Positions 21,948-48,405 of a stretch of 57,183 bases of DNA are shown one piece after another. Both the position numbers and the translations under genes were made by a program. Under the pieces are notes generated by a model. That model saw only the letters and a list, made by a program, of their open reading frames with translations, did not search any database and had not been told where the DNA came from. Numbering within the stretch: position 1 is the stretch's first letter; each line of letters starts with the position of its first letter. This DNA is from Bacteroidales bacterium. Lineage in GTDB: Bacteria > Bacteroidota > Bacteroidia > Bacteroidales > ML635J-15. The stretch spans positions 1-57,183 of the forward strand of contig JAGCNN010000078.1 in NCBI GenBank assembly GCA_017645925.1. Reading direction: 5' to 3'.

Positions 21948-24900
21948 CTAATAAATTATAGTAACCGAACCACGATATGGTTCTTCATCGTCGAACAGGT
22001 CAATTATGAACATATAAGTTCCGGCTGGTACAAAGTGGCCTCTGTAACGACCATCCCATGGTTCATTGTAACCCTTAGAGGTGAACATCAACTGACCCCA
22101 ACGATTGAATACATAAACCTCGGCAGCCGGGAACATTTCCACGTTATCAATAAGCCATGTATCGTTTACGCCATCCCCATTAGGAGTGAAGACATTTGGA
22201 ATACGCAAGCAAGGAACGTCCACATCGGTAAGTACGACCTCGGTTTCATCGGACTTACATCCGTTGGCATCGACAACATACAATGTATATTCACCCGACG
22301 GCATATTAGGAAGTACTGCAACATCGGACTTGCTTTCGTTCCAGTAATACATATAAGGCTCGACACCACCTACAGCACTCATCTCTATTTGACCTGTACG
22401 GCTGTTGCGGCAGAACGGATGTTGTATATCAACATTCATGAGCAGTGCATCGGGCTGATATACCAATACCGATTCAATAGCATCACAACCATTATTGTCG
22501 GTTACCCTGACAACATAGTAGCCTGCATTCAAATTATTGAATACGCTGACCATTGACGGACGAATGAGATTATCAATCGAGTAACTGTATGGCTCAACAC
22601 CACCAGTAGCCTGAACTTCAATCTTACCAGTCTTTTCACCGTTACAATTTATTCCAGTTGCAGTTGCATCAATTGAAATTGCAGCCGGAGCCTCAAGCGT
22701 TATGCTCTTCACTGCCGAGCAACCTACTTGGTCGGTAATAGTAAGCGAATATGTACCCATTCCAACATTTGTAAGTTCGCTTTCAGTTGTTGAAGTGTTC
22801 CACAGATAAGTGTAAGGAGCAACACCGCCAAAAGCAGTAGCGACAATCTTACCGTCGTGCGAATCGTAGCACAATGGCGACTCGATGTAGGTCTGCAAAT
22901 TCATTTCTGGAGGTGAAACAAGATTTATTCCTGCCTGACCTGTACAACCCCATGCATCGGTAATAGTTACCATATAAGCACCTTCGAACAAGTTATAGAT
23001 TTCAGGTGAAGCATTGCCAGTACTCCATGAGTAGTAAGGCTGACCTGCAGCATCGGGACATTGAGCAGCAATAATACCATCGTTGTAACCGTGGCAGCTA
23101 ATTGGCTGCGATACGGTTATGTTAACCGAAAGCATTCCCTGCATCAATATCTGAGCCTCAGCACTTGCCTGACACATGTTTGCATCAACAACAGTAAGTC
23201 CGTATGTACCGACTGCCAGTCCAATGTTATCTGGAGCATCGGCAGCACCATTAGACCAGATGTATGTGTAAGGACGTGTACCACCTACAACAACAGCGCT
23301 AATTGAGCCCTCAACGACACCGCACTGGAGGTCGCGAGTTACGAGCGAAGGAGTGATTTCCATAGGCTGCTGAACGTTGCATTGCAATGCTGCCGAACAT
23401 CCACCTGAATCGTAAACCGTAACAGTGTAGTTTCCTGCAGTGAGGTTAGTTGCTGTTTGCGAAGTCTGACCATCGCTCCAATTGTAGGTGTAACCAGGAT
23501 TTCCACCAGTTGCCAATACAGTAACAGAAGTTGTTCCACCGTTGCAGTCAATTGTTCCTATCGAAGAGAAATCAACATTGAAAACAGGAGCCTGCCTTAT
23601 TTGTATTGTCGCCGTATTGGTACAACCGTTTGCAGCAGTTGCTGTAACAGTATATAGATTTTCTGTTACAACTGTATTTGACTGCGTATCAGTTCCATCG
23701 CTCCACATATATGATTGACCACCATTTGCTGTGAGCGTAATCGCGGTTGTCAAGCAATTCAATTCAGAAGTTTCTGGAGTAGTCGTTATTGAAACATAAG
23801 GCTGAACAATATTCTCGAGTATGCCAATAGATGTCGTTGAAGTACATCCATTTGCACCAGTAGCAGTTAACGTATATTGTCCGTGAGTTGTGAATGTTCT
23901 ATCATCAGCAACAACATTATCGTTCCAACGGTAGGTTACATCCGGATTACTCATAATTATATGTATGCTCGGATTGTTGCAGTCGATTTCATAGGTTCCT
24001 GTTTCGTTTATAACGTCAAATACAGGAGGATTGTAATCGGTTGTAATTTCAAAAGAAGCAGAAGCTGTACATCCGTTAGAACCTGTAGATGTTACTGTAT
24101 ATACACCAGGACCAACAAATGAATTGAGATAATTGCTCGGATTTGAACCGCCCGACCAAGCATATGCGACACCATTGCCACTTGCGGTAACGTCAATATG
24201 GTCAGTAGTACAATTTAATTCGTAAGAACCAGTTACACTGCTAACATTCAAGTTTGGAACTGTGTTATCGCTCCGAATGGTTATATCGGCAGAACCTGTA
24301 CATCCATTAGCCGAAGTAACAGTTACCGTGTATGTACCGGGTGTAGTAACAGTCTGAGAAGCACCTCCACCCCATAATGAATTGCCCCAAGCGAATTGGT
24401 ACTGAGAGCCATTTTGAGCCTGAGCTATGATGTCAATTGAATGGAGATTGCAGTTTAGAGTTTCTGTTCCAGACATATTATCAATATAGACGATAGGTGC
24501 AGAACTATTTTGATCTATGGTTATTGAAGCCTCGCCTTCACAACCATTCTGTGCTTTTACTGTTACAGTATATTGACCAGCTTGGGTTACCGTAATATTT
24601 GGACCTACCTGATTATTCGACCATGTATATAAAACACCGTCAGGTGAAGATGCGCCAAGAGTAAGCTGGCTATGCGAACAATCGAGTTCGGAGTTTTCGC
24701 TTGTTATTCTTATAGTAGGAGACGGAGTTGTAAAGTCTTCGGTTACAACAACGTATGCTGTATTAGAACAACCATTTGCGCCATAAGCTGTTACTGTATA
24801 TGTGCCAGCGGCAGTCAAATCAATTTCAGCACCCTCGTATCCACCAGTCCATTGATACAAAACACCAGTTCCTGTTGCAATAGCATGCACAGAAGTTGCA

Positions 24901-30900: not shown

Positions 30901-33900
30901 CCATCGGTGTGTGTATAAGCTTCGTTCTGTTCCTCAAATGCATCATAGAGTCCAAGCATGTGCAGACCCGTGTACCAGTTGGTTGCAGAAGTTCCAACAT
31001 GCCAACGAGTTGTAGTTACTCTATCAGGCCATACGTAAGTATAAGGATCGATTGCATTGCCATTATAGATACCACTTGAAGGATCGCTGCTGTAGTAGTC
31101 GGGAAGGATTATTGCTTCACGGTTATTAGGACATGTAATCTTTATCTGTACATCACCTATGAATGAATGTTCGGTATTAAGCTTAATGTACTTTATTGCA
31201 TCGGTGTTAGTAACAACAGCACCATCGTCGAAATCATAGAATGTAACATCCGAAGTATAGCACTGTGTTGAGCAATTGGTTCCATCAGGGATGAAAGTTG
31301 TTTCGGCGTGACCGAGAGAAGTTTCTATTGCATGAGGTTCCGGAGTAACCTGTATATCGGATCCGTTACCACCGATTGTAATCTCCTGACTGTCGCCAAC
31401 ACAGATATCGCCGAGAGAATAATCGGATACACTTGTATTCAAACCGCCAGAAACACGGATTCTACCGTATGCCACAGTTTGACATTGTCCTTCCGAAACA
31501 GTAAGCGAGACGTCGTAACCCTGTTCTGCGTTCGGAATATAAGGAGCAGTCTGCGTATTTACTACATAAGGCTCAAGACCTCCGTGAGGATTGATACTCC
31601 ATCTCCATGTTGGATTGGTATAGCCAGTCTGCTGTCCGTACATATTTACGCTAGAACCAAGACATACATCGAAATAATATCTATCGCCAATTACTTCTGA
31701 ATATCCAGTCATAGACACTGTTGCATCAGGACAATCAATTTCGCACATTGGAGCGTCGATATATGTAATCTTTTCACAGTTAGTTGTGGATGATGCAAAC
31801 GCTGCCATTATAGTATGCTGCTCACCATCACCATGCAGTCCGCTAAGCGAATAAGCTATTGGGCTTACAAACGGAGGCGTGAATACCTGCGATACAGCGC
31901 CGTCGGAAATTGTAAGAGTTCCATCTACTGGAGGATCGGTAAAGTTAATAAGACCACTTAGGGAGAATGTCTGGTCGCCAGCACAATCTCCAGCTATTGT
32001 TGTTATACTTGTGATATTACAGTCGTTTACAATTGAACAGTCGGAAAGACCAGCACCAGGAGCACCAAGATTAGTCTGGGTAAACGAAATTGTTCCCTCC
32101 GACCTACTATAGTTAGCAATCAAGACCATATAAATCTGTCCTCTGCGCGCATTCGGAATCTGCAAATACTCGACATTGGATGTAGAACCGCCAAAATCGA
32201 CCAAGTTTCCACTAGGAGATGCTAATGCACCAACTACGCATATTGGAGTTTCTGTATCGGATGTAGTTGATACATTATTAGGATTATATGAATTATGCAA
32301 ATTTGAGTATGAGGAACCCGAAAAATATGTGAAACCATTTGCCCCATTATCATTTAGGTCATTCTGTATGTCACAGGTGTTATTTTCAAATGGCCCCCAG
32401 CAACCAAAGTCCACATCACCAGTTGAACTACTATTTGGAGTCAACCTAATTTCCATTTCTATCGCACCGTCTTGCGATATACGCAGATACCACCAAGTAG
32501 CATTATGGAAGAAGGTACACATTCCATCAGGGCTGTCGGTAGCATCACTCGTTACATTCATGTCGTAGCCCGGATTTTCGTTTGTAGCACAGAATGCCTG
32601 AGCCGTTTCGCACTCGGTACTACCAGTGATGTCGCCATCGCTTGGACAAGTTACCGACAACGTATATCCTGCACTGTTTGAACTTGAATAATTGTCAACT
32701 ATCAGATAATAAGTTGTTCCTGCTGTTAAGGATATAGTCTGGTTACCAGTTGACCAGCAACTGCCGACCAAGTTGGTGCCAGAAGTTCCACACGACGACA
32801 TCAGGAAAAAGTCGGGGTCACCAGTTGTTGTACTTGTTATAAATGTATGGCTTCCTGAAATAGTAGGAGTAAATGCATATACACGTTCCTCACCCGGCTC
32901 ACTATAACCACAACCATTATATGACGACCAGCTACCCGAAGTGCCAAGAGTTCCTGTATATGTCTGACCGCAAGTCATTGTCGTTGCGCTTGCACAAGGA
33001 CCATTACCAGAAGGACAAGTTACCGAAAGTGTATATCCTGCATTCTCTGATGTACGGTAATTATCAGCAATTATGTAATAGGTTGTTCCTGCTGTCAATG
33101 TAACAGTCTGGTTGCCAGTGCTCCAGCATCCACCTACCAAATTGGTGCCCGAAGTGCCGCACGATGACATTAGGAAGAAATCTGGGTCGCCAGTTGTAGT
33201 CGTTGCAGAGAAAGTATAACTTCCTGATGATGAAGGGGTAAACGAATAAACGCGTTCCTCGCCCGGTTCAGAATAGCTACAACTTGTGTATGACGACCAC
33301 TCGCCCGAAGTACCGAGAGTACCCGAATAAGTTGTTCCACAAGTCATTGCTGTGGCACTGCCACATGGACCGGCAGGACAGGTTACACTAATTGTATATC
33401 CTGCGGTATTTGAACTTGAATAATTATCAACTATAAGGTAATACGTTGTTCCTGCCGTCAATGTAACGGTTTTGTCTCCAAGCCCCCAACATCCTCCTGT
33501 CAAATTGGTACCAGATGTTCCGCACGATGACATAAGGAAGAAATCGGGGTCGCCAGTGGTTTGAGAAGCAGAAAATGTATAACTTCCACTCGATGTCGGA
33601 GTAAACGCATATACATGTTCTTCGCCCGGTTCTGAATAAGAACAACTTGAATATGAAGACCACTGTCCCGAAGTGCCGAGTGTTCCCGAATAAGTTGTAC
33701 CGCAAGTCATTGTCCTGACATTACTGCACGGGTCGTTTTGCGGACAATCTACGGATATGGTATAACTTGCCGTATTGGAACTGCTATAATTATCGACTAT
33801 AAGATAATAGGTTGTCCCTGCGGTCAATGTAACGGTTTTACTTCCTAAACTCCAGCAACCGCCCGCAAAATTGGTACCCGATGTTCCGCAGGACGACATC

Positions 33901-35466: not shown

Positions 35467-35497
35467 CAAATTTATACAATGATTTTTAAAATGCAAA
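35467..35497 (-). promoter_or_regulatory. Candidate Bacteroidota sigma-A promoter for the small-protein / giant-gene-1 operon
   Basis: On the minus strand, TAAATTTG (35474-35467) fits TAnnTTTG, and TTTG (35497-35494) lies 19 nt upstream. The start codon at 35371 is about 95 nt downstream. This is pattern match only. Confidence 0.35.
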
Positions 35498-35583
35498 AAA
35501 AATTTTAATTATTTTTTAAGAATTACAAAACTGCCATTTCTATGGGACAATATTTGACATCAAAAAACGCCCCAAAAAACATA

Positions 35584-35616
35584 CAAAAAAATAGCGGCGC
35601 AATGCATTGCGCCGCT
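35584..35616 (-). terminator. Intrinsic terminator (distal copy of the triplicated hairpin) for giant gene 2
   Basis: The perfect 24-nt palindrome AGCGGCGCAATGCATTGCGCCGCT (35593-35616) is followed on the minus strand by ATTTTTTTG. Only this copy of the three hairpins carries the T-tract. Confidence 0.75.
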
Positions 35617-35842
35617 ACAAATTGGTCATTATTATATTCTATTCCACAACAAACCTTTCCACCCGCACCTTGTTGCCAGCGCAATACATTGCGCTGCTAC
35701 AAATTGGTCATTACTATATTCTATTCCACAACAAACCTTTCCACCCGCACCTTGTTGACTGCGCAATGCATTGCGCCGCTACAAATTGGTCATTATTATA
35801 TTCTATTCCACAACAAACCTTTCCACAAATACCTTGTCGCCA
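35597..35842 (-). repeat. Three tandem copies of an 82-nt unit spanning the last 13 codons, stop codon and hairpin of giant gene 2
   Basis: The units lie at 35597-35678, 35679-35760 and 35761-35842. Each differs from its neighbour at about 5 of 82 positions. Each contains GCGCAAT(G/A)CATTGCGC plus ...GTGGAAAGGTTTGTTGTGGAATAG (VERFVVE-stop) on the minus strand. Only the rightmost copy is continuous with the ORF. Confidence 0.9.
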
Positions 35843-38800: not shown

Positions 38801-41800
38801 ACAAAGAAAAATATGTCATCAGCAGACGGATTCGGACAGTAGTTTTCATCGAGGCCAACATTTACAGTCCAAGTCTTTGTCGTTACACCATCCTCGGCTG
38901 TAACTATATATTCGACAGGTTCCGAGAAATTTCTCCTTACGCCCGACTGTACATTGACAGTAGCATTTTCCGAAATTGTGAAGGTCGGAATATAAAACAT
39001 ATAGTTAGATACTTCGGCGACAAATACCGATATGGTAGCATTTTCCGAATCTATAATCGATTCTGAAGTCTGCTCATCAATTTCGAAAGTAAGTATTTCC
39101 GCTTCGGTGTTCATTGGTCTCAACAACAAATTGTCTATCGCACATTCGCGATAACCATTCAATACAAAGTCGAAACGAGCCTCTCCTTCATACTCCGGAA
39201 CTGCTATCTTCATTCTTGCCATTCCGTTGCTTGATGCATTTTGGATTGCAACAACCCTTAAAGTATCAGTTTCACTATTTACAAACATTACATACAGGGA
39301 ATCGGGACGGCTTATATTTTGAGTTGACTGCAAAACATCAAACTCAAGTGCATAATGTAGTCCAGATTCAAAATTGAATAGCGGAGTCTGCAAACGAGCA
39401 ACCATCTGCGAAGTGCCGGCTGCCAAATGAGCCTCGCCATTGCTTACCGACCAAACATTTTGTCCGCTGCTTGTTGTCCTCCAACATTCGGGAAGTTCAC
39501 CATCAGCAACTGCAAAGTCTTGTGTATATGGCAAGTCAACAGCAGGGCAATCGGTTGCAACATTGACAGTCGCATCATACCATTCGCTTTCGATTCCTTC
39601 ATAGCAAGCACATTGAATTTCGGCAGAAATAGTGTACTCGGTGCTAGCCTGAAGTCCATCAATATGCAAACTCGGCTCGTTAACCGTCGTTTCGACAACT
39701 TCACCTCCATTCAATGAATATTTTACGTTCCAAGCGCCTGATATTGCATTAACATCCGACCATGCCAAAACTACGTTGTTTTCGCCAACCGACCTAACTA
39801 CCATATTATAAGGTGCAATGCAGTCAACAGTCTTTTCGATTGTCAAGTTGTCAACATAAACGCCACCAGCATTGTTTGACTTTCCTACAAGTATCACATA
39901 GTTAATACCTGCATCTACCCTTGCATTTAATGTATATCTGTACCATCCAGCCGACAATTCGCCATGTACATTTTCGCCATCCGAAATTTGGTAATTCTTC
40001 GAAACGAAACCAAGTTTCTGCGGAGTACCGTTTACTATGTCAGGATAAGTATTAACCCAAATTTCAACGCCCTCGTCCATTGCCGGCTCTGATGATGTCG
40101 AACGATAAACATCAAGACTGATGTTGTATCCGTTGATGCTTTCAACAAACTTAAGTCCCATAGATGACAAGTTGTGAACCGAGCCTACCTTTGTATCGGC
40201 AAGCATCGCCTTAGGCGTTGCATTGTCGCCCAACACCGTTGAAGCACCCATCCATGCGCCATTAACATAGCTTAGACCTGCACCCGAACCGACTGCCGTC
40301 CTTTCCTGCGACCAGCATACAGGCGGGAATATTCCAGAATTGAAGTCCTCGGTATATGGGAAGCTCTTGACGATTAAGCAATTGGTTGTAAACGAGTATT
40401 CTGCAAAACCTGAATAATCGTTGTCGCAAACAGAACGTATCCTTACATTGTATGTAGTGGAGAATTGCAAACCTGTTATGTTTATAGTATTTTCGTCAAC
40501 AGTAACAGTAGTATATTCAGTTTCCGCTTCCGTCTTGTATCCGACTTCCCACTGAGTCATATTGAAGCCATTCCACAACAATGTTACTTCGTCATCCGCC
40601 AAATTTACTGTTGCAATATCTTCCGGCATCTGGCACGATGCAATTGTAGAAACGGTAAGCAACGACCAATCGCTATTGCCATTTCCACCTTGACAATTTG
40701 CACGGACATAAATGTCATAAAGCGTAGATTCTGCAAGTCCTGTAATCGCGTAGTACGGCTCATCAACATTCACTTCAGTGCCTGCGGTATTAACATCAAA
40801 GCCCGAAAGTCCATATTTTAATGTCCAGCTATCGCCAACATTGTCGGATGACCAAGCCACGTCAAGTTCGTTTTGCAAACGAGTAGCTTCCATATCGTTT
40901 ACGGCATAGCAGTGAGATATCGCGTTTATCCGAATTTCGTATGAAATATCCTCGCCATCGCTATCAACGATTACATAATACGAACCGGCACTGCAATCTA
41001 CGACAAATGACATATTACTATCATTTGTCTTCGAGTCAATCATATATGAATGCATCGTGCCGCAAGAATTCATTACAAAAGCACTGAAATAACCGCCGTT
41101 TGACCATAGGCTAATATTAAGCATCTTCCTATTTTCCACGTCAATCCAATATACAGCATCGTTGCCCGAAAGCACAAATGCATTTTCAGGCATATCATTA
41201 TAATAGGTATTCAGCATACTAAACAAACCTGCTGTTGATGATGAATGGGCGTATGGCAAATCATTTTCAGCATCGACCACATAGGGATTTGTACAATCGG
41301 CGCCAAGTGGAGAATCTGCATACGAAATATTAACCGTCCATTCCTTAACTGTACCATCCTCAGCAGTTACAACAAACGCAACCGGCTCAGAGAAATTGTA
41401 GGACATTCCGTTTGAATGGTTTATGCTAGCCAAGTATGAAATTTCAATCTCAGGGGTTATTGATTCAACATCAAACATACGGCTAATAGTTGCATCAACA
41501 GTTGCATTTCCTGAATTAATGTCAACGCTCAACATACCTTCGAATGCAAACGAAAGTATTTCTGCCTCGGCAATTGCAACATTACGATTTACAATTATTG
41601 TCCAATCCTGCGTCATTCCTGACTCGGAAGTTACAGTATATACAAATGGATCGTTAAGGTCGATTGCCGTTCCTATTTCTGGACTTATAGTTGCGTTGTC
41701 AGAAATTTGAATGAACGGAGTTACATTATCCAAGTTCCACGAATATGGGACATTGCAAGTAACTGTATGGTTTTCATTATCAATAATGACATTTTCAGCG

Positions 41801-44800
41801 CCATCAAAGTCAAAAGCCAATATTTCATTTTCATTAGAAAGTATTTCGATGGAAATGTCATCTACTGCTGCTGGAGGATTCGTACCACCAGAGCCATCGT
41901 TCTTCCAGAATAATACCAAATAATAGTCTCCAGCTGCAGGCAATAATTGTTTTCCTTCAAAATGTTGCCAAGCATAAACACCAGACAATACTCCACTCAA
42001 ACCATACCAACCACTTGGTGCATCTGAGGAAGTGCTACCCATACCATTTGCACCAGAAAACATAGGATTTATATTCGTTGGCACTATAAAAGCCATCATG
42101 TTATCCCAGCCGCCTTCTCCAAAGCACTTCCAATCGAATGAAAGACCGACTCCCACAACACTATCAGTATGGAATTTGAGATATGCATAAGAATACGAGA
42201 TACAAGATTGACAATAAGTATTTTCAACTCCACTATTCTGAGAAATATACAAGGATTTTCCACTTGCCGATGTAGCCGTTCCTACATACCAACCATTTGC
42301 ATCGTTGTGGAAATACCAATTTTCAAGATATTCCGAATTGAAATTCTGAGTATAAGGCAATGTTACATAATCATTATCTGGAGTCTGGAAATCGAACACC
42401 ACCCATTCGCTAATCTCAGCATCAGAACATACCGAAGATATATATGCGTGGTACGAATGTCCGGGTTCAAGACCAGATTGCACGCATGAAGTAGCGGTTA
42501 CATTTGTATATGCAGCCGATGCCAGTTCAGCATCAGTCATCTCCACCTGCGATATGTAAACATTAAAATTATTGTATTCATACGGTTGCACCCAGTTTAG
42601 CGATACCGATGTTGAAGAAACGCTTGCAGTAACGCCATACGGAGATTCGCAAGGTGGCAATGTTGTAAAACTTGGGCCTGCAACCCATGGGCTGTAGTCG
42701 GTTTCGGAACAATACGACCTAATGTATGTATAATAAGTGGTATTTTCAGTAAGTCCAGTTACCATGTATGGGCTAGATGACACGATTGTTGGTGCTTCAG
42801 TTGCAGCGGCAAGGTCGCTCGACTCGGAAACAAGCAGCTGCCACTGTGGAATCGAGCCTACTGATGTCCACGAAATTTCAGCAGATGTCTTACCTACATT
42901 GTCAACACCTACATTTCCGGAGAACAAGCAGTCGGTTTTATATGTAACACTTATGTTATCTACTGCGGCAGGAGGATCTTGCCTTTCATCAAAGATGTTC
43001 ATCCAGAAAAATACTAAATAATAATCTTCAGCATTAGCCACATTTATATCACAAACATTTGTCTGCCAATTATAACCAGCACCAGACACATAATATTCTG
43101 ACAGAGCGTCAGTATTTGTAGCAAGCAACCAACCGTTAGGAACAGAGGTCGAACCACCAATTCCATTGCCATATCCTTCACTCAGATATGGATTCAATGA
43201 CACAGGAACCAAGAATACCCTTAGACAATCAATATGATCACGTCCAAAACATCTCCAATCGAACTGCACCCTCACTACGCTTGGATGGTCGATATTCAAA
43301 CGGCAGTATGCATACGAATAGTTGTAACCCCAACTGTAAGCATCCATATACCCGTTGCTATAACCTTCATCATCTGATACGTATAAAGATTTTTCACTAT
43401 CATGGGCGACAGCTCCTCCCCAGTACCAGCCTACAACGCCGTTGCTAATAGCCCAATTTTCCATTATACCACTCTCAAAATTCTGAGTATAAGGCAGCGG
43501 CATAGCCTCCAATTCAGGTGTAGTAAATTGGGAATGCACCCAAGCGCTGTATTCATCATCACCACATTCAGTTGCTGCATATAGGTGGTATGTATGACCT
43601 GGAGTCAAATCCGAAAAAGACTTATTTCTTGCATTGCACAACTCATATCCTTCAGACGCAAGTTCTACATCCGTTTTTTCTGTTTCAGAAAATACTATGC
43701 GCGTACCAAGCCTATCATATACATTATACCACGACACTTGAGCCGTTGTTGGAGTAACTAATACGCTTATATCGTATGGTGCCTCACATGGCGGATAAGT
43801 TGTAAAGCTTACACCCTCGCACCATGCACTCTGTTCCGAGGCCGAGCAATAAGAACGAACAAACACGTTGTATTCGGTATTCATTTCAAGGCCAGTGATT
43901 GTTGTATTGGTTGCATCCACAAGCACAGGCTGCTCTGTTGCCGACTCGGGACTATCGGCAGTAGTTACAAGAACCTGCCACTGGGTAGAAACGCCAACCT
44001 CATCCCATTCCAAATCAACAGAAGTCTTGCCTAGTCCAGAATATGCCAAATTCATGACGGGCACACAATTCGACACAATTTCAATGCTAATGTTATCGAC
44101 TGCTGCCGGTGGGTTGTCGCCTCCGCTATAATCGTTTTTCCAGAACAACACAAAGTAATAGTCGCCTGGATTTGTAAGCGTAACAGTCGATACACTTGTT
44201 GACCAATATGGATTACCAGATTTATTTCCATTACCGACATCAATCCATGAAGAATATTGTTCATTATAATTAGAGCCCATTCCATTTACTGCACCAGCCG
44301 AAAGATTAGGATTTTCAGATACCGGAATCATAAATGCACGAAGCAAATCGTAATTGGTTTCACCATTAGCCAACCAATCAAACGATACACTCACCACTGC
44401 AGGCTGATCGAGATGAATACGACAGTAAGCATACGAAAATGACCCTTCCCAATCTCTATAATTATGGGAAACGCCATTATCATCCGATATGTATAGCGAT
44501 TTTTCACCACCTCTTGCAACCGCTGTTCCCATATACCAACCATTCATATCATTGTTCAGATGCCAGTTTTCGAGAACATCTCCTTCAAAGTTCTGATGGT
44601 ATGGCAACGACATTGCCTCATCGGTAGTTGTTGTAAACTGATAGTGCACCCAGTCGCTCAAAAAACCCTCACCGCAAACTGTCCTTACATAAAAATGATA
44701 AGTACTACCTGCAGCAAGTCCCGTATTTGTGTACACCCTTGAATCAACGGTTTCGTATTCAGAATCTGTAAGTGCATTCAAATCCGAGCTTGACATTTCC

Positions 44801-47800
44801 GTTTCGGAAAGATATACATGGAAATCTAACATGTTGTATTGCTGTGCCCATGTTAAGGTTGCCGTATTGGGAGTTACAACAGCAGCAACGTTATCGGGCT
44901 GCTCACATGGAGGCAAGGTTGTGAAATAATATCCATATACCCAATCACTTTGGTCGGACTGAGAACAATAAGCACGTACATACACATTGTAATCTGTATT
45001 CGCTACAAGTCCATTGACAGTTACCATTGTATTGCTTACCAACTCAGGCGTTAAGCTTGTCGAATTCGGATCGTTGGATGTTGTAACCAGAACCTGCCAT
45101 TGCGAAGCATCTGACTCTACATTTGACCACGACACCACTGCCCAAGTCATACCATAACTATCAACGTTGATATCCTCAACCGGTCGGCATGTTGGATAAG
45201 TAGTGAAATATCCACCCCACGCCCAAGCGCTTTGCTCTGATTCCGAACAATATGTTCGCACATATACATAATATTCAGTATTTGGCGTTAGACCGGAAAC
45301 ATTTGCAGTAGTGCTGTTTACAAGCATCGGGGTTTCGGTAGCGTCATTAGCTGATGATGACCGCGAAACCAGCACCTGCCACTGTGAAGCATCTGCGTCA
45401 ACATTTATCCACGACAGATTTACCCATGTATCATCCCAACTATCAATGTCAACATTCCCGACAGGAACACATGATGGCAAAGTTGTGAACTGAACGCCAC
45501 TACTCCATTCGCTCTGGTCCGATTCGGAACAATATGTACGCACATATACATAATATTCAGTGTCTGGCGTCAGATTGGAAACACTTGCAGTAGTGCTGTT
45601 TACAAGCATCGGAGTTTCGGTAGCTTCTGATACTGAAGCCGACTGCGAAACCAGCACCTGCCACGGAGAAACACTGCCGTTTGCATACCACGAAATTTCA
45701 GATGAATACTTGTCGTAATTGTCAACGCTTACATTTGCGACAGGCAAACATGATGACAATATTTCTATGCTTATATTATCCACTGCAGCAGGAGGATTTG
45801 AACCACTATAGCTATCATTTTTCCAGAAGAATACAAGATAATAGTTGCCAGTTTCCGTCAATACAACATTCTTAGCACTATGCTGCCAATCTTCATACCC
45901 TTGCAAACAGCCATCCGTTTCCGAAATATCAATCCAGCCATTTGGTGTTGGGTTGCTTGACCCTGCCATGTCGTTTGAAGTACCAGCATTAAGATTCGGA
46001 GATTTCGATACTGGAATCATAAATGCACGTAGCACATCCCATGAATATTCACCAATATTTTTCCAATCAAAAGAAACATTAACTAGGCATGGATTTCCAA
46101 CATTCAACATGCAATAAGCATACGAAAACGATGTATTATTAGTACTATATTCATTATTTACTCCATTATTATTTGAAATATACAATGAATATGTGCTTTC
46201 GTTTGCCGTAGCAGAGCCAACATACCATCCGTTACTTGCATTATTAAATGTCCAGCCGTTAACGCTTCCGTTCTCAAAATCTTCATAGTAAGGCAAAGTG
46301 AAATTCGCCGCACCCGTCGTAAAGTGGACACTAGCCCACGAACCTACCTCGTATTCATTGCATACCGGACGCACATACACATTGTAATATGTTGCAGGCT
46401 CCAGTCCACTCACCGAATAACTGCTGCCCGTTACATTTATCAACGAAGCCGACTCCAGCTCGCTAACACTCATTGTGTTAGTTGTTACATACAACTGATA
46501 CTGCAAGACATCATACGCGTACGACCATGAAATATCAGCAGTACTAACACCTGCATTTACCGCAAGATTGTCAACCGTAGTACATACTTGCTGTGTAACA
46601 AATCCTACAGCACTGCTCCATGCACCATAAATCTCCTGTGTACAATAACTGCGTATGAATGCATAATACTGAGTAGCGGGCGAAAGACCAGTTACTGTTT
46701 GTGTTGTCGATGTCATTGCGACAGGCGATTCGGTTGCCGTAGCCGGATTAGATGAAGTTGAAACCAATATGTCGTACTTCACGCCATCTCCAGAGGTACG
46801 CGTCAACGACACAGATGTTGAACTTTGGACATTAGCAGTTAAAGCAGCTGTCTTGCCGCATGTGGTAACAAAGCTTAGAGCACTGCTCCATTCTCCATGC
46901 CTATTTTCAGAACAATAAGCACGTATGTACGCATAATACTGTGTTGCCTGTGTAAGACCAGTTATTGTTTGTGTCGCGGAAGTCATCTCTACTGGAGTTT
47001 CGGTTGCCGTTTCTGGATTCGAAGATGTTGAAACCAAAACTTCATACTTTACGCCATTGCCTGATGCACGCGTCAACGACACTGATGTTGAACTTGGAAC
47101 TGCATTACCCAATGTAGCCGTAGCCGTACAAGGAGCAACTATCTCTATGTCGTCAACAGCAGCGGGAGGATTGGTACCTGCACTGTTATCGTTCTTCCAA
47201 TAGAATACAAGAATATATTCTCCCGCGGATGGAATATCAACGTTCAATGATGAAGTTCTCCAATCGCTTGCCGAATAAGTCCATAAGAATGGTCCTGTCG
47301 CTCTATAACTTTGCGAAGAATCTGCCACATTAATATAACCATCTGGCAATGAATTTGTGTTGCCAGTAATATCATCTGCAGGCGGACAGTCTGTGCCAGA
47401 TGGCACAAGAGCAGCATACATTGCATCCCAGCAATTAGTTTCACCACGAGCCTTCCACTTAAACGACACCGAATATGTTCCTTCACTGGCCAAATTGATA
47501 TAACGATAAGCGTACACGTATGACGGAGATGAAGTTGTATAAGCATTTGACGAACCATCGTTTGTTATGTACAACGCCTTTGATGAACTAGCACTAGTTG
47601 CAGTACCTATCATCCAATAGTTTGTGTACGTGCCGTTTACAAATATCCAACTGGAATTTTCAGCAGCATTTTCAAAATCGCAGTAATAAGGTGTCACGGC
47701 TGGCGCTACAAAAGAATAATACCGACCAGCACCCGGAAATACAGAATATGTAGTACTAGTATATGTAGTGGAATATGATGCGGTATGATCGCTTGGATTT

Positions 47801-48405
47801 ACATACCAGAATTTATTACCATCAACGTTTCCAATACCAATCTGGTAGTTAGACGGTGCATTTGTGTAGTCGCCACTATACACAATCCTAATCTCGTTTG
47901 TTCCTTCGTACAACTGGATTTGGAACTTTATATAGTTTGTTCCACTAGTGCTTGAGGTCAAATGTAAAAGGCCTTCTATTACCCTCACATTAATTGCTCC
48001 ACCTGTATATAAACCTGTTTTCACATATCCTGCAGCACCTGTACTACAATCTTTTCCGACAGCTGCAATAATTGGCGTATTTGATGAATAATTTGACGAA
48101 TTAAACGGATTTTGATAATGGCTACCGGATATAGCAGTGCCACCCAATCGTATTCGTCCATTTGAATTGGCAGAAAACTGCGTATATTCAACACCATCGT
48201 ACACAAATGTAAAACCAATATCTGTCACACCAGAAGCCCAATCATCTCCTCCCGATTGAATTATCTCTGTAAATTCCGGAGAAAGAAATGTACCATCATC
48301 TCCTGTTGAAAAACGATAAATCTCAAGTCCCTGAGCATGTACATTAGCAACATAAGACAGCAATGCCATTAACACAAAAACTGCAATGCGTATTTTATTT
48401 CTCAT
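35803..48405 (-). CDS. Giant secreted T9SS cargo protein (4200 aa from the ATG at 48405), type-A (Por_Secre_tail-like) C-terminal sorting domain
   Basis: This is a single uninterrupted ORF. The ATG at 48405 gives MRNKIRIAVFVLMALLSYVANVHAQ (the track start at 48453 is a TTG). It has many FN3-like modules (W...VLVS....A.E.P......T.TGL...T.Y..YVR.YC). Five beta-sandwich modules end in PPAAVD(D/N)I(E/S)(I/V), and three more diverged ones are present. Modules of the IL.F.F...TISP type follow, then nine InlB-B-repeat-like units. The C-terminus reads LYPNPNDGRFSVDF...GVYFARFVSGDKVFVERFVVE. Confidence 0.9.
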   Translation of the reverse strand: MRNKIRIAVFVLMALLSYVANVHAQGLEIYRFSTGDDGTFLSPEFTEIIQSGGDDWASGVTDIGFTFVYDGVEYTQFSANSNGRIRLGGTAISGSHYQNPFNSSNYSSNTPIIAAVGKDCSTGAAGYVKTGLYTGGAINVRVIEGLLHLTSSTSGTNYIKFQIQLYEGTNEIRIVYSGDYTNAPSNYQIGIGNVDGNKFWYVNPSDHTASYSTTYTSTTYSVFPGAGRYYSFVAPAVTPYYCDFENAAENSSWIFVNGTYTNYWMIGTATSASSSKALYITNDGSSNAYTTSSPSYVYAYRYINLASEGTYSVSFKWKARGETNCWDAMYAALVPSGTDCPPADDITGNTNSLPDGYINVADSSQSYRATGPFLWTYSASDWRTSSLNVDIPSAGEYILVFYWKNDNSAGTNPPAAVDDIEIVAPCTATATLGNAVPSSTSVSLTRASGNGVKYEVLVSTSSNPETATETPVEMTSATQTITGLTQATQYYAYIRAYCSENRHGEWSSALSFVTTCGKTAALTANVQSSTSVSLTRTSGDGVKYDILVSTSSNPATATESPVAMTSTTQTVTGLSPATQYYAFIRSYCTQEIYGAWSSAVGFVTQQVCTTVDNLAVNAGVSTADISWSYAYDVLQYQLYVTTNTMSVSELESASLINVTGSSYSVSGLEPATYYNVYVRPVCNEYEVGSWASVHFTTGAANFTLPYYEDFENGSVNGWTFNNASNGWYVGSATANESTYSLYISNNNGVNNEYSTNNTSFSYAYCMLNVGNPCLVNVSFDWKNIGEYSWDVLRAFMIPVSKSPNLNAGTSNDMAGSSNPTPNGWIDISETDGCLQGYEDWQHSAKNVVLTETGNYYLVFFWKNDSYSGSNPPAAVDNISIEILSSCLPVANVSVDNYDKYSSEISWYANGSVSPWQVLVSQSASVSEATETPMLVNSTTASVSNLTPDTEYYVYVRTYCSESDQSEWSSGVQFTTLPSCVPVGNVDIDSWDDTWVNLSWINVDADASQWQVLVSRSSSANDATETPMLVNSTTANVSGLTPNTEYYVYVRTYCSESEQSAWAWGGYFTTYPTCRPVEDINVDSYGMTWAVVSWSNVESDASQWQVLVTTSNDPNSTSLTPELVSNTMVTVNGLVANTDYNVYVRAYCSQSDQSDWVYGYYFTTLPPCEQPDNVAAVVTPNTATLTWAQQYNMLDFHVYLSETEMSSSDLNALTDSEYETVDSRVYTNTGLAAGSTYHFYVRTVCGEGFLSDWVHYQFTTTTDEAMSLPYHQNFEGDVLENWHLNNDMNGWYMGTAVARGGEKSLYISDDNGVSHNYRDWEGSFSYAYCRIHLDQPAVVSVSFDWLANGETNYDLLRAFMIPVSENPNLSAGAVNGMGSNYNEQYSSWIDVGNGNKSGNPYWSTSVSTVTLTNPGDYYFVLFWKNDYSGGDNPPAAVDNISIEIVSNCVPVMNLAYSGLGKTSVDLEWDEVGVSTQWQVLVTTADSPESATEQPVLVDATNTTITGLEMNTEYNVFVRSYCSASEQSAWCEGVSFTTYPPCEAPYDISVLVTPTTAQVSWYNVYDRLGTRIVFSETEKTDVELASEGYELCNARNKSFSDLTPGHTYHLYAATECGDDEYSAWVHSQFTTPELEAMPLPYTQNFESGIMENWAISNGVVGWYWGGAVAHDSEKSLYVSDDEGYSNGYMDAYSWGYNYSYAYCRLNIDHPSVVRVQFDWRCFGRDHIDCLRVFLVPVSLNPYLSEGYGNGIGGSTSVPNGWLLATNTDALSEYYVSGAGYNWQTNVCDINVANAEDYYLVFFWMNIFDERQDPPAAVDNISVTYKTDCLFSGNVGVDNVGKTSAEISWTSVGSIPQWQLLVSESSDLAAATEAPTIVSSSPYMVTGLTENTTYYTYIRSYCSETDYSPWVAGPSFTTLPPCESPYGVTASVSSTSVSLNWVQPYEYNNFNVYISQVEMTDAELASAAYTNVTATSCVQSGLEPGHSYHAYISSVCSDAEISEWVVFDFQTPDNDYVTLPYTQNFNSEYLENWYFHNDANGWYVGTATSASGKSLYISQNSGVENTYCQSCISYSYAYLKFHTDSVVGVGLSFDWKCFGEGGWDNMMAFIVPTNINPMFSGANGMGSTSSDAPSGWYGLSGVLSGVYAWQHFEGKQLLPAAGDYYLVLFWKNDGSGGTNPPAAVDDISIEILSNENEILAFDFDGAENVIIDNENHTVTCNVPYSWNLDNVTPFIQISDNATISPEIGTAIDLNDPFVYTVTSESGMTQDWTIIVNRNVAIAEAEILSFAFEGMLSVDINSGNATVDATISRMFDVESITPEIEISYLASINHSNGMSYNFSEPVAFVVTAEDGTVKEWTVNISYADSPLGADCTNPYVVDAENDLPYAHSSSTAGLFSMLNTYYNDMPENAFVLSGNDAVYWIDVENRKMLNISLWSNGGYFSAFVMNSCGTMHSYMIDSKTNDSNMSFVVDCSAGSYYVIVDSDGEDISYEIRINAISHCYAVNDMEATRLQNELDVAWSSDNVGDSWTLKYGLSGFDVNTAGTEVNVDEPYYAITGLAESTLYDIYVRANCQGGNGNSDWSLLTVSTIASCQMPEDIATVNLADDEVTLLWNGFNMTQWEVGYKTEAETEYTTVTVDENTINITGLQFSTTYNVRIRSVCDNDYSGFAEYSFTTNCLIVKSFPYTEDFNSGIFPPVCWSQERTAVGSGAGLSYVNGAWMGASTVLGDNATPKAMLADTKVGSVHNLSSMGLKFVESINGYNISLDVYRSTSSEPAMDEGVEIWVNTYPDIVNGTPQKLGFVSKNYQISDGENVHGELSAGWYRYTLNARVDAGINYVILVGKSNNAGGVYVDNLTIEKTVDCIAPYNMVVRSVGENNVVLAWSDVNAISGAWNVKYSLNGGEVVETTVNEPSLHIDGLQASTEYTISAEIQCACYEGIESEWYDATVNVATDCPAVDLPYTQDFAVADGELPECWRTTSSGQNVWSVSNGEAHLAAGTSQMVARLQTPLFNFESGLHYALEFDVLQSTQNISRPDSLYVMFVNSETDTLRVVAIQNASSNGMARMKIAVPEYEGEARFDFVLNGYRECAIDNLLLRPMNTEAEILTFEIDEQTSESIIDSENATISVFVAEVSNYMFYIPTFTISENATVNVQSGVRRNFSEPVEYIVTAEDGVTTKTWTVNVGLDENYCPNPSADDIFFFVYNDSAVMYLFPAHNETSYNLKISSLPIDPDTETADLFDSTIEPDSTHKSVIEGLDIYTYYYIYVQSNCGATSWTEKTACGVFTLPYEQDFSADDCWEIYSYNDDNRTWSIANGEAVYNFSRTNQADDYLVSPELKILQNAKMEFKYRAGNFSYPETFSVYVGTANNGLVRLDSLTVTNETYQTYGPVDLSEFAGQLVEIAIVCQSAPNMYRLYIDDFRVFVSDYVIDVSSVGNGSISPDGRVEVAPGESAEFVIMPDEYNDLLSLTLDGEDVSDEVVDGIYTLADVNAEHTLVATFTERYTFTASAGEGGRIVTEGVTAADRGDTVSFVIIPDEGYRPGDVIVDGIAEQLEQGSYIYTFENVDASHTIHATFDRIIYHTIHVDAGENGIVTPNGDVVLEEGENLTISVIPEEGYIIHEFLVDGSDAMEELVAGGNNYTFENITDDHTVRVSFVENVYYSIAVSFGEHGTITPNGDVSVANGADQTFYIVADAGYHIESVTVDDEVVPSAVAEGEYTFVNVTAEHSIHAEFAINTYTIVAYAQGGTITPSGSITVNHGDNLTFEFEPDAEYELLNFLVDNISHEVEGNAYTFDSITADHAVVAIFTPMNIIRHEITATAGEHGSISPSGRVRVVEGENQTFQITPDEHYYISSLLVDGEAVDVVESYQFENVVADHTISASFEAYKHTVTAIAGEHGIISPSGEQEVDEGSDITFTFAPNVGYIVSEVLVDGESVEFSGNTYTLQNVLSDHVVTVNFDLLPMWTITAVSGANGAISPNGTQYVLNGDDIEFTFVPNDGYMLDRVVVDGQGFSPESNIYRFENVTENHYIYVSFRPLVYYITATAGPHGELSPLGEVEVAPGTTQVFTFNPYIGYELDSVFVDGEYVVTDGNTYEFVDVDANHTFHVTFRHIAVSVGDEVAVAASLYPNPNDGRFSVDFAGISGEVVYQLVDAAGAIVDVRDIYVDEGMTMEFYHDLKPGVYFARFVSGDKVFVERFVVE
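36045..38140 (-). repeat. Nine tandem ~77-aa divergent InlB B-repeat (Listeria-Bacteroides repeat)-like modules, protein-level repeat
   Basis: The pattern Y.(I/V).......G.(I/V)(S/T)P.G...V..G....F...P..GY.......VDG.........Y.F.NV...H.(I/V)...F recurs nine times directly before the CTD. The copies are diverged at nucleotide level. Confidence 0.7.

What the first reader, a model, noticed from the sequence alone, without database searches (positions are those of the whole stretch)
21948..48405. Two back-to-back giant T9SS cargo genes (4267 aa type-B CTD, about 4200 aa type-A CTD) fill 26 kb
Seen in sequence:
- Two uninterrupted minus-strand ORFs (21948-34751 and 35803-48405) are separated only by a 202-codon secreted-protein gene and a 430-nt spacer.
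- Both begin with signal peptides and end in T9SS sorting domains of different classes. Gene 1 ends FTPNGDGVNDTW...NRWGQ (type B). Gene 2 ends LYPNPNDGRFSVDF...FVERFVVE (type A).
- Their repeat content does not overlap. Gene 1 has PPC-like, P-domain, He_PIG-like, ~75-aa Ig-like and SprB repeats. Gene 2 has FN3, beta-sandwich modules ending in PPAAVD(D/N)I, IL.F.F modules and nine InlB-B-like repeats.

Established knowledge: genes above 4000 codons are rare in bacteria, and giant T9SS cargo such as SprB are motility or adhesion filaments.

Inference: this is a dedicated giant-adhesin locus, possibly controlled by the response regulator immediately upstream. I cannot name a characterised homologue for either protein.
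Basis: partly seen in the sequence, partly recalled or inferred. Interest (0 to 1): 0.7.

Follow-up and report, generated by a model that had tools for sequence, protein, structure and literature searches.

The report
Paired giant T9SS surface adhesin genes
Two intact 4,200-residue surface-protein genes and a small unknown gene between them form a conserved three-gene unit in uncultured ruminant-gut Bacteroidales; it is most likely a pair of long cell-surface adhesin fibres, which is a known kind of protein in a new, conserved arrangement.

Summary
Gene 1 (21948-34751, minus strand, 4267 aa) ends in a type-B T9SS sorting domain. Gene 2 (35803-48405, minus strand, 4200 aa) ends in a type-A sorting domain. 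A 202-aa signal-peptide gene lies between them.

Neither ORF is an assembly artefact. At least eight independent metagenome assemblies carry them intact, dN/dS is 0.15-0.20, and the repeats are mostly too diverged at DNA level to collapse.

New findings:
- The order type-A giant, small gene, type-B giant recurs in all 8 lineages examined, all uncultured and mostly ruminant-gut.
- The N-terminal domain of gene 2 is homologous to that of the Flavobacterium gliding adhesin RemA/RemZ (profile E=1.5e-17).
- The eight "PPAAVD" modules of gene 2 fold as CBM/MAM/gingipain-adhesin-like jelly-rolls.
- The 122-aa repeats of gene 1 are PPC-like.
- The small protein is a narrow, highly conserved family with no known fold. 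In two distant proteins it is fused to the N-terminus of gene-1-like cargo.
- A terminator and a Bacteroidetes-type promoter separate gene 2 from the small-gene/gene-1 operon.

No sigma-54 promoter supports control by the neighbouring response regulator.

Verdict: real giant T9SS adhesins in a new conserved arrangement. Function is inferred, and interest is moderate.

The parts
35803..48405 (-). Gene 2: 4200-aa T9SS type-A cargo. Signal peptide, RemA-like N-domain, 8 jelly-roll modules interleaved with about 15 FN3, 3 DUF5018 Ig-like modules, 9 InlB-B repeats, type-A CTD.
   Evidence: intact 4200-aa ORF in 6 other assemblies; dN/dS 0.19-0.20
47701..48330 (-). Gene 2 N-terminal domain (aa 26-235), RemA/RemZ-type
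   Evidence: Profile A6 against PDB: 8gl6_D 'RemA' aa 18-227, E=1.5e-17, 67 bits. No Pfam family.
45751..46302 (-). Jelly-roll module 2 of 8 (aa 702-885). The other seven are at aa 236-427, 1265-1446, 1635-1825, 2014-2191, 2680-2861, 2956-3100 and 3284-3426.
   Evidence: Motif [LFT]PYxx[DN]F ... VD[DN][ILF]. AF2 pLDDT 88. Foldseek gives 110 PDB hits at E<=1e-3: CBMs, MAM, Eph LBD, gingipain K1/K3.
36073..38139 (-). Nine InlB-B-like (Flg_new_2) repeats, aa 3423-4111
   Evidence: PF18998 92.7 bits; own HMM finds 9 copies
35809..36030 (-). Type-A CTD of gene 2 (aa 4126-4199)
   Evidence: TIGR04183 33.5 bits, cut-off 23; 57-89% identical in orthologues
35597..35826 (-). 82-bp unit (last 24 nt of gene 2, stop codon, hairpin) in 2.8 tandem copies. 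Only the last copy is a complete intrinsic terminator (35618-35591).
   Evidence: copy number is 3 or 1 among assemblies
35467..35497 (-). Bacteroidetes-type promoter TTTG-N19-TAnnTTTG upstream of the small gene
   Evidence: 3 exact matches in the window against 0.32 expected; this one lies 96 nt upstream of the ATG
34763..35371 (-). Small gene: 202 aa. Signal peptide, conserved 90-aa domain (aa 24-112), disordered tail with a basic C-end. No CTD and no lipobox.
21948..34751 (-). Gene 1: 4267-aa T9SS type-B cargo. Signal peptide, N-domain, 4 PPC-like repeats, 'WGPF' domain, P-domain region, 6-7 He_PIG-like repeats, about 21 Ig-like/SprB 75-aa repeats, type-B CTD.
   Evidence: intact in other assemblies as 4259/4260/4267 aa; dN/dS 0.15
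32637..34106 (-). Four 122-aa PPC-like repeats (aa 216-705), 65-82% identical to each other at protein level and 75% at DNA level
32022..32636 (-). 'WGPF' domain (aa 706-910). It is the first collinearly conserved domain and the partner of the small-protein domain in fusion proteins.
22212..23456 (-). SprB-type 75-aa repeats (aa 3766-4180)
   Evidence: PF13573 72 bits, 5 stretches; own HMM
21957..22205 (-). Type-B CTD of gene 1 (aa 4183-4265)
   Evidence: TIGR04131 70.4 bits, PF13585 83.5 bits
21897..21927 (-). Intrinsic terminator after gene 1 (14-bp stem plus T-run)
48406..48540 (-). Conserved promoter/leader of gene 2, including the -7 box TATGTTTG
   Evidence: Nearly identical to L040 although the proteins are only about 60-67% identical

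Best explanation
This is a conserved three-gene cassette of an uncultured, mostly ruminant-gut Bacteroidales clade. [quoted passage not shown]

Shown:
- Both giants have Sec signal peptides and class-specific T9SS sorting domains.
- They consist almost entirely of Ig-like, FN3 and beta-sandwich modules. No catalytic domain was detected.
- Gene 2 begins with a RemA/RemZ-type domain and carries eight CBM/MAM/cleaved-adhesin-like jelly-rolls.
- Gene 1 carries an unassigned N-domain, PPC-like repeats, SprB repeats and a type-B CTD.
- Conservation rises towards the C-terminus, and the N-terminal 'heads' are mosaic between species.
- Gene 2 is its own transcription unit, with a terminator after it. 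The small gene and gene 1 share a promoter and lie 11 nt apart.

Inferred from published T9SS work (PMC9143113, PMC12618676, PMC10994853):
- After Sec export, each CTD docks in the SprA/Sov translocon.
- The type-A CTD of gene 2 is handed to PorV. The protein is then fixed to the surface, covalently to anionic LPS in the P. gingivalis model, or partly released.
- The type-B CTD of gene 1 is handed to a PorP/SprF-like outer-membrane shuttle that also anchors it. No such gene is adjacent, so gene 1 would be an 'orphan' substrate served by a shuttle encoded elsewhere.
- With the C-termini at the membrane, the roughly 40-45 tandem domains form stalks. These would be of the order of 100 nm or more (my estimate at 3-4 nm per domain). 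They hold the fast-evolving N-terminal ligand-binding modules away from the cell.
- The likely ligands are glycans on plant fibre, other microbes or the host.

The small protein most likely binds the N-proximal 'WGPF' region of gene 1, as a dedicated periplasmic partner or chaperone, or as a tip subunit. This is the weakest step.
For: - ORFs, signal peptides and CTDs.
- Not an artefact:
  - At least 8 independent assemblies at 97.9-99.9% nt identity keep the ORFs intact.
  - dN/dS is 0.15-0.20.
  - Only two DNA-level tandem arrays exist, and the coding one is 75% identical.
  - Orthologous reading frames are stop-free over 9-12 kb in L018, L020, L037, L038 and L039. The L040 translation, which started in the upstream spacer, showed 2 stops.
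- Cassette conserved: L018, L020, L037, L038, L039, L042/43 and L044, with small-protein identity down to about 49%.
- RemA/RemZ N-domain: E=1.5e-17.
- Jelly-roll fold: pLDDT 88, 110 PDB matches including CBM22, CBM61, CBM4, MAM and gingipain K1/K3. Weak Pfam hits to Cleaved_Adhesin and CBM_4_9.
- PPC-like repeat: 2luw, E=8e-5.
- Gradient of conservation and mosaic heads.
- Transcription units.
- Small protein linked to gene 1:
  - They are adjacent in every context, 11 nt apart as called in L037-L039 and at the upstream ATG in the window.
  - Two fusion proteins, P0006 and P0118, place the small-protein domain directly N-terminal of gene-1-like domains.
- Anchoring routes and orphan type-B substrates.
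Against: - There is no expression, localisation or binding data.
- All relatives are uncultured.
- No T9SS component or porP/sprF-like gene lies in the window, so secretion is inferred from CTDs alone.
- Fold similarity to CBMs is at 10-16% sequence identity and does not show sugar binding.
- The small protein has no CTD, so it cannot reach the surface alone. Its fold has no informative relative.
- The fusion argument rests on two proteins, one of them from a short contig.
- All assemblies are short-read.
Confidence: 0.58

Rival explanations
1. The pair are true gliding-motility adhesins. They would be functional counterparts of SprB (gene 1) and RemA (gene 2), loaded onto a moving surface track driven by GldLM, so these gut Bacteroidales would glide.
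For: - Gene 1 has SprB repeats and a type-B CTD.
- In F. johnsoniae the SprB type-B CTD alone sends cargo to the gliding machinery.
- Gene 2 has a RemA/RemZ-type N-domain and a type-A CTD.
- Both are filament-sized.
Against: - No gld or spr genes and no sprF-like gene are in the window.
- Type-B cargo also exists in the non-gliding P. gingivalis, where it is simply anchored to PorP.
- SprB repeats occur in many non-motility proteins, including the 1539-aa protein in this window.
- The RemA lectin domain was not detected in gene 2.
- The rest of the genome could not be reached.
Confidence: 0.2
2. The proteins are not adhesins. They would be a protective or structural surface coat (against phage, protozoa or host factors), or shed glycan-binding scaffolds that work away from the cell.
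For: - The distal parts evolve fast and are mosaic, as expected for exposed antigens or phage receptors.
- RemA-type type-A cargo can be released into the medium.
- No enzymatic domain was found.
Against: - CBM/MAM/cleaved-adhesin-like and PPC-like modules are typical ligand-binding units.
- The architecture of a stalk plus distal binding modules and a C-terminal anchor is that of known fibrillar adhesins.
- A coat would be expected to be shorter and more abundant (inference).
Confidence: 0.12
3. The locus is switched on by the adjacent sigma-54-dependent response regulator.
For: - The regulator gene (49168-50328) is co-oriented and is the nearest upstream gene.
- It lacks a DNA-binding domain, as do activators that act without enhancer binding (own knowledge: FlgR, CtcC).
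Against: - No TGGCAC-N5-TTGC-like site with 2 or fewer mismatches lies on the minus strand of 48406-49167 or 35372-35802.
- The conserved upstream element is a -7 TAnnTTTG box, and the small-gene promoter is TTTG-N19-TAnnTTTG.
- The regulator is 55 nt from the preceding gene and 760 nt from gene 2.
- No regulator homologue lies in the other loci that reach upstream of gene-2-like genes. L040 shows at least 700 nt of non-coding sequence there.
Confidence: 0.08
4. One or both ORFs are assembly chimeras or decaying pseudogenes.
For: The genes are highly repetitive at protein level. All available assemblies are short-read. The 82-bp repeat at the 3' end of gene 2 varies in copy number.
Against: - The same ORF lengths appear in at least 8 assemblies from different samples and assemblers.
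- Repeats are mostly 30-50% identical at protein level (65-82% for the four PPC-like copies), and only one coding array is detectable at DNA level, at 75%.
- dN/dS is 0.15-0.20.
- Collinear orthologues at 46-67% identity have no stops in L018, L020, L037, L038 and L039.
Confidence: 0.02

Closest known systems
SprB of Flavobacterium johnsoniae (giant gliding adhesin, type-B CTD cargo bound to SprF)
   Same: Gene 1 shares the size class, SprB repeats next to the C-terminus, a type-B CTD and a build of tandem Ig-like modules. Type-B cargo is anchored through PorP/SprF-like proteins.
   Different: No sprF-like gene lies downstream, and no sprC/sprD-like genes lie upstream (operon recalled from memory). 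Instead there is an unrelated 202-aa gene. Gliding is unknown.
RemA / RemZ (Fjoh_0803) of F. johnsoniae (mobile surface lectin adhesins, type-A CTD)
   Same: The N-terminal domain directly after the signal peptide is homologous (E=1.5e-17). Both have a type-A CTD.
   Different: Gene 2 is three times longer. No lectin (Gal_Lectin) domain was detected. It has eight CBM-like jelly-rolls, about 15 FN3 and nine InlB-B repeats instead. The PDB chain is labelled RemA, while the paper calls the trapped substrate RemZ, and only its CTD is resolved.
Gingipain/HagA 'cleaved adhesin' domains of Porphyromonas gingivalis, and CBM4/9/22/61 and MAM jelly-rolls
   Same: The predicted fold of the gene 2 module matches K1 and K3 (4itc, 3m1h), several CBMs and MAM domains at E of 1e-4 to 4e-6. 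These also occur in T9SS type-A cargo.
   Different: Sequence identity is 10-16%. The Pfam Cleaved_Adhesin and CBM_4_9 hits are below threshold. There is no protease domain, and no ligand is known.
Orphan type-B T9SS substrates (Fjoh_1123, Fjoh_1720, Fjoh_4934) served by the orphan shuttle Fjoh_1677
   Same: Gene 1 has a type-B CTD without an adjacent porP/sprF-like gene.
   Different: The shuttle for gene 1 has not been identified. The conserved partner gene here is a small soluble protein, not a beta-barrel.

Membership tests
T9SS type-B CTD cargo (TIGR04131 / PF13585) | C-terminal type-B sorting domain above the curated cut-off | tested here: met
   Gene 1 aa 4183-4265: 70.4 bits (cut-off 35) and 83.5 bits (cut-off 27)
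T9SS type-B CTD cargo (TIGR04131 / PF13585) | N-terminal Sec signal peptide | tested here: met
   Read from the translation: MKRLYNIFMNKVMPIRTAFVAMFMLLVLGSANVSA|Q. No predictor was run.
T9SS type-B CTD cargo (TIGR04131 / PF13585) | Cognate porP/sprF-like gene directly downstream (common, not obligatory) | tested here: not met
   A terminator and a convergent AMP-binding gene follow. No PorP_SprF hit among the window ORFs scanned.
T9SS type-B CTD cargo (TIGR04131 / PF13585) | T9SS-dependent secretion and surface anchoring | not testable with these tools
   Needs genetics or proteomics
T9SS type-A CTD cargo (TIGR04183 / PF18962) | C-terminal type-A sorting domain above the curated cut-off | tested here: met
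   Gene 2 aa 4126-4199: TIGR04183 33.5 bits (cut-off 23). PF18962 scores 25.3, below 27. Orthologues carry unmarked PF18962 hits.
SprB-type gliding adhesin | SprB repeats (PF13573) with a type-B CTD | tested here: met
   72 bits, 5 stretches, aa about 3766-4180
SprB-type gliding adhesin | sprF downstream, and movement on the gliding track | tested here: not met
   No sprF-like gene. Movement is not testable.
RemA/RemZ-type adhesin | Homologous N-terminal domain plus type-A CTD | tested here: met
   Profile A6 against 8gl6_D aa 18-227, E=1.5e-17; CTD
RemA/RemZ-type adhesin | Lectin domain (RemA is described as a lectin) | tested here: not met
   No lectin family among Pfam hits at E<=0.01
PPC (pre-peptidase C-terminal) domain, PF04151 | Match to the family model or to a solved member | tested here: inconclusive
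   No Pfam hit at E<=1. A profile of 13 copies hits the solved C-terminal domain of a metalloprotease (2luw) at E=8e-5. That this is a PPC domain rests on my recall.
CBM / MAM / cleaved-adhesin beta-jelly-roll superfold | Jelly-roll fold | tested here: met
   AF2 pLDDT 88; Foldseek top hits have TM 0.5-0.76 normalised to the target
CBM / MAM / cleaved-adhesin beta-jelly-roll superfold | Ligand (carbohydrate) binding | not testable with these tools
   Needs binding assays
Sigma-54-dependent operon | -24/-12 promoter (TGGCAC-N5-TTGC) upstream | tested here: not met
   No minus-strand site with 2 or fewer mismatches in 48406-49167 or 35372-35802

The most novel reading that the evidence does not exclude
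The cassette could encode one integrated surface organelle rather than two independent adhesins. A RemA-like type-A fibre and a SprB-like type-B fibre would always be made together. The 202-aa protein would be a new class of dedicated partner (chaperone, adaptor or tip subunit) for giant type-B cargo, replacing the usual adjacent SprF-type gene. This would give an abundant uncultured rumen Bacteroidales clade a distinct way to attach to fibre or to move.
Probability: 0.25. Interest if true: 0.65.

Novelty: new variant of a known kind. Interest (0 to 1): 0.42.

Why it matters
Giant T9SS adhesins are known mainly from Flavobacterium gliding (SprB, RemA). Very little is known about them in the anaerobic gut and rumen Bacteroidales that dominate fibre digestion.

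A strictly conserved pairing of a type-A and a type-B giant with a tiny, highly conserved partner protein offers a concrete system for three questions:
- How are 450-kDa cargoes kept secretion-competent?
- How are orphan type-B substrates anchored?
- What do uncultured rumen Bacteroidales stick to?

The eight CBM-like modules and the mosaic heads are candidate determinants of substrate or host specificity. The result is not a new principle. It is a well-defined new arrangement of known parts plus one unknown protein family.

Tried and rejected
- Full-length gene 1 as a homology query timed out.
- Queries with sub-regions returned few hits. They did not return the near-identical giants known to be in the collection. 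I therefore do not treat 'few homologues' as evidence of rarity.
- Exact-sequence look-ups of both giants found nothing, because strain variants differ by a few residues.
- Plain self-BLAST gave only the identity hit. It was replaced by fragment BLAST.
- Single-sequence PDB searches gave nothing for gene 1 and only Ig/FN3/DUF4960 hits for gene 2.
- A profile of the gene 1 N-domain found no solved relative.
- A fold search with the small protein gave only generic alpha/beta sandwiches (RNA polymerase subunit L/Rpb11, LuxS) at E>0.009. I rejected these as uninformative.
- Rfam found only two tRNAs in the window.
- No inverted repeats suggesting an invertible promoter lie upstream of gene 2, and no inversion is seen among assemblies.
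- The 157-aa ORF upstream of the other type-B gene (6179-6652) is unrelated to the small protein.
- The 313-aa ORF downstream of a gene-1-like gene in L019 has no Pfam match, so it is not demonstrably PorP/SprF. L019 is not the same cassette, because it has no gene 2 homologue.
- The metagenome scan for the gene 2 N-terminus gave one locus (L040) that starts about 700 nt upstream of the gene. Synteny of the regulator therefore could not be tested across species.
- Literature searches found no description of this cassette.
Full report

Yes. The mechanical ORF list gives three minus-strand ORFs: 21948-34751 (4267 aa, ATG), 34763-35371 (202 aa, ATG) and 35803-48453 (4216 aa from a TTG).
Gene callers chose this length in six other assemblies. 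It also aligns with the start of a divergent orthologue: MRNKIRI in the window against MGNKIRL in L040.
- All three products start with a Sec-type signal peptide ending in A|Q. From my own knowledge this is the usual Bacteroidota signal-peptidase-I context.
- The sorting domains are confirmed by curated models:
  - Gene 1 aa 4183-4265 scores 70.4 bits on TIGR04131 (cut-off 35) and 83.5 bits on PF13585.
  - Gene 2 aa 4126-4199 scores 33.5 bits on TIGR04183 (cut-off 23). It scores 25.3 on PF18962, just under its cut-off of 27.
- The domain list is largely right:
  - SprB, fn3, InlB-B-like PF18998 (exactly nine copies by my own HMM) and DUF5018 (the 'IL.F.F' modules) are clear.
  - The P-domain passes only on a fragment scan, and He_PIG is sub-threshold.
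  - 'PPC-like' is not seen by Pfam. A profile of 13 copies of the 122-aa repeat does hit the solved C-terminal domain of a metalloprotease (2luw, which I recall to be the Vibrio vulnificus vEP PPC domain) at E=8e-5.
- The two proteins share no repeat detectable by BLASTP.

**2. Are the ORFs artefacts?**

No.
- Exact-protein look-ups with the response regulator and the small protein retrieved at least eight contigs from different samples and assemblers. These are ruminant gastro-intestinal metagenomes, two JGI samples and Logan unitigs.
- The contigs are 97.9-99.9% identical to the window. They carry a 4200-aa gene 2 and a 4259-, 4260- or 4267-aa gene 1. The 8-residue spread is a start-codon choice.
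- Against the roughly 98% identical strain, dN/dS is 0.19-0.20 for gene 2 and 0.15 for gene 1, with no internal stops.
- Protein-level repeats are mostly 30-50% identical to each other; the four PPC-like copies are 65-82%.
- Tandem Repeats Finder sees only two DNA arrays in 27 kb. One is the 366-bp PPC-like repeat at 75% identity. The other is a non-coding 82-bp array. Repeat collapse is therefore unlikely, although no long-read assembly was available.

**3. What surrounds the genes?**

- Downstream of gene 1 lie a strong terminator (21927-21897) and a convergent AMP-binding enzyme gene.
- Between gene 2 and the small gene, the 431-nt spacer contains an 82-bp unit made of the last 24 nt of gene 2, its stop codon and a hairpin.
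  - The unit is present in 2.8 copies.
  - Only the last copy keeps the full 12-bp stem and T-run (35618-35591).
  - Five other assemblies have three copies and two have one.
- A Bacteroidetes-type promoter, TTTG-N19-TAnnTTTG, lies at 35497-35467. It is one of three exact matches in the window against 0.32 expected.
- The small gene and gene 1 are 11 nt apart.
- The locus therefore reads as two transcription units: gene 2 alone, and small gene plus gene 1.
- Upstream of gene 2 lies a 760-nt spacer.
  - Its last 130 nt or so are almost identical in L040, although the proteins are only about 60-67% identical.
  - This conserved stretch includes a -7 box, TATGTTTG. The rest of the spacer does not align.
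- The response regulator (REC + sigma-54 AAA+ + lid, no HTH) sits 55 nt behind a Pyr_redox gene and a CCG-domain gene.
  - No -24/-12 site with 2 or fewer mismatches lies on the minus strand of either spacer.
Synteny of the regulator in other species could not be tested.
- No porP/sprF-like gene and no T9SS or gld component is in the window.
- Two more CTD proteins are in the window: 1594-6213 (type B) and 52572-55247 (type A).

**4. The cassette is conserved.**

- In GTDB genomes, L018 (a water-buffalo reticulum MAG) carries all three genes in the same order. Identities are 64% for gene 2, 71% for the small protein and 60% for gene 1.
- L020 does too, at 46-53% identity.
- The small protein has 76 homologue clusters, all hypothetical proteins of uncultured Bacteroidales.
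- Context look-ups for five divergent members all returned the same order:
  - first a type-A giant of 4466-4837 aa (3434 and 3721 aa as called in L044 and L042/43);
  - then the small gene;
  - then a type-B giant of 4173-4481 aa.
- Together with the window, this makes 8 of 8 lineages examined.
- Gene 1 orthologues are collinear from about aa 700 to the end of the available sequence, at 50-59% identity.
- Gene 2 orthologues are collinear from about aa 970 to the C-terminus, at 46-64% identity.
- The reading frames are stop-free in L018, L020, L037, L038 and L039.
- Conservation in gene 2 rises towards the C-terminus:
  - jelly-rolls 3-5: 39-62%;
  - jelly-roll 8: 54-94%;
  - InlB-B array: 52-89%;
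  - CTD: 57-89%.
- The N-terminal 640-935 aa of gene 1 orthologues are mosaic:
  - The N-domain is kept at 57-71% in L018, L020, L022 and L038.
  - The PPC-like repeats are replaced by GEVED + CUB + Big_2 in L037, and by Big_2 in L038 and L039.
  - L039 even has a gene-2-type jelly-roll there.
- Conversely, the gene-2-like proteins in L030 and L032 carry a PPC-like repeat.
- The membrane-proximal parts are thus constrained, and the distal parts are shuffled from a common pool of modules.

**5. What are the modules?**

- Gene 2 N-domain. A profile of the window sequence, four loci and one database hit matches the chain deposited as 'RemA' in 8gl6 over residues 18-227, with E=1.5e-17.
  - Only its CTD is resolved.
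  - Gene 2 therefore shares both ends, N-domain and type-A CTD, with a characterised adhesin family.
- Gene 2 jelly-rolls. Eight modules begin with [LFT]PYxx[DN]F and end with VD[DN][ILF].
  - AlphaFold2 on module 2, with its seven paralogues as the alignment, gave pLDDT 88.
  - Foldseek against the PDB returned 110 hits at E<=1e-3.
  - The top hits are a porphyran-binding CBM, CBM22, CBM61 and CBM4, followed by MAM and Eph ligand-binding domains and the gingipain K1 and K3 cleaved-adhesin domains.
- No catalytic family was detected in either giant.
- Gene 1 in order:
  - N-domain of unknown fold; a PDB profile search found nothing;
  - four PPC-like repeats;
  - a cysteine-rich 'WGPF' domain (aa 706-910) shared with many smaller CTD proteins;
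  - a P-domain whose two halves, read by eye at about aa 1153-1225 and 1496-1520, are split by a long insertion;
  - 6-7 He_PIG-like repeats;
  - about 16 strong 75-aa Ig-like repeats;
  - five SprB-type repeats;
  - the type-B CTD.

**6. The small protein.**

- It has a signal peptide, no CTD and no lipobox.
- Residues 24-112 are very conserved, with more than 20 invariant positions across 47 sequences. The tail is disordered and ends in a conserved basic motif.
- AlphaFold2 predicts a confident (pLDDT>90) beta-beta-alpha-beta-beta-alpha domain. It has no informative structural relative.
- An exhaustive HMMER search of 1.84 billion representatives found only 32 relatives.
- Two of those relatives are fusions:
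  - P0006 has the signal peptide, the small-protein domain, a CUB domain, a gene-1-like 'WGPF' domain and He_PIG-like repeats.
  - P0118 has the small-protein domain and then a 'WGPF'-like domain (E=4e-12 against gene 1 aa 716-908), an Ig domain and a CTD-like end.
- Conserved adjacency plus these two fusions argue that the small protein works with the N-proximal part of gene 1. How it does so is unknown.

**7. Most likely mechanism.**

The shown and inferred steps are kept apart in the Best explanation section. In short:
- Both giants are Sec-exported and recognised through their CTDs by the T9SS translocon.
- The type-A cargo goes to PorV and is anchored or partly released.
- The type-B cargo goes to a PorP/SprF-like shuttle that also anchors it (PMC9143113, PMC12618676, PMC10994853).
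- C-terminal anchoring, 40-45 tandem beta-domains and fast-evolving N-terminal binding modules describe fibrillar adhesins.

Whether the fibres are also moved by a gliding motor cannot be decided from this window.

**8. Comparison and novelty.**

- The proteins are new members of a known kind, giant T9SS adhesins. Gene 2 is related to RemA/RemZ at its N-terminus, and gene 1 is SprB-like at its C-terminus.
- Three things are new:
  - the strictly conserved pairing of a type-A and a type-B giant;
  - the small partner family;
  - the absence of the usual sprF-type neighbour.
- No paper in the held library describes this arrangement.
- I rate it a new variant of a known kind, of moderate interest.

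Noticed in passing
window 35597-35826: An 82-bp unit is tandemly triplicated. It is made of the last 24 nt of gene 2, the stop codon and the terminator hairpin. Copy number is 3 in the window and five other assemblies and 1 in two assemblies. Only the last copy is a complete terminator.
   Followed up: partly
window 48406-48540 and L040 about 600-730: The last 130 nt or so upstream of the gene 2 start codon are almost identical between two species whose gene 2 proteins are only about 60-67% identical. The remaining 630 nt of the spacer do not align. This is probably a conserved promoter/leader with a TATGTTTG -7 box.
   Followed up: partly
window 49168-50328 (-): The response regulator has REC + sigma-54 AAA+ + lid domains but no DNA-binding HTH (386 aa). 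It appears to be in an operon with a Pyr_redox gene (50384-51400) and a CCG-domain gene (51416-52483).
   Followed up: partly
window 1594-6213 (-) and 52572-55247 (-): The window holds two further T9SS cargo genes. One is a 1539-aa type-B protein (CUB, PKD, SprB, CHU_C), again without an adjacent porP/sprF-like gene. The other is an 891-aa type-A protein.
   Followed up: partly
window 32637-34106; L024, L026, L036: The 122-aa PPC-like repeat (GDPDFFLMS...TYYLIVDNY) is 61-67% identical to copies in Brumimicrobium species (Flavobacteriales) and about 50% identical to a copy in a Phycisphaerae MAG. This is unusually high conservation across orders and phyla.
   Followed up: partly
P0006 (locus L041 1837-4389) and P0118: These are fusion proteins in which the small-protein domain is the N-terminal domain of gene-1-like T9SS cargo.
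   Followed up: yes
L030 2401-3402 and L032 9356-10345: Gene-2-like proteins in other rumen MAGs carry a RemA-like N-domain followed by one PPC-like repeat. Modules have therefore been exchanged between the two giant families.
   Followed up: partly
window 30117-31241 (gene 1 aa about 1153-1545): The P-domain consensus appears split by an insertion of roughly 270 aa that contains two short alpha/beta-looking repeats. This was read by eye only; Pfam reports two P_proprotein stretches.
   Followed up: no
window 6804-9260 (-): An ExbB/ExbD/ExbD cluster lies here. A TonB-dependent receptor is at 15624-17909 (+), and tRNA genes are at 9357-9446 and 14873-14945.
   Followed up: no
tool behaviour (against 16, 17): The word-indexed homology search did not return the near-identical 4200- and 4267-aa proteins that are demonstrably in the collection. 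Low hit counts for giant proteins from that tool should not be read as rarity.
   Followed up: no
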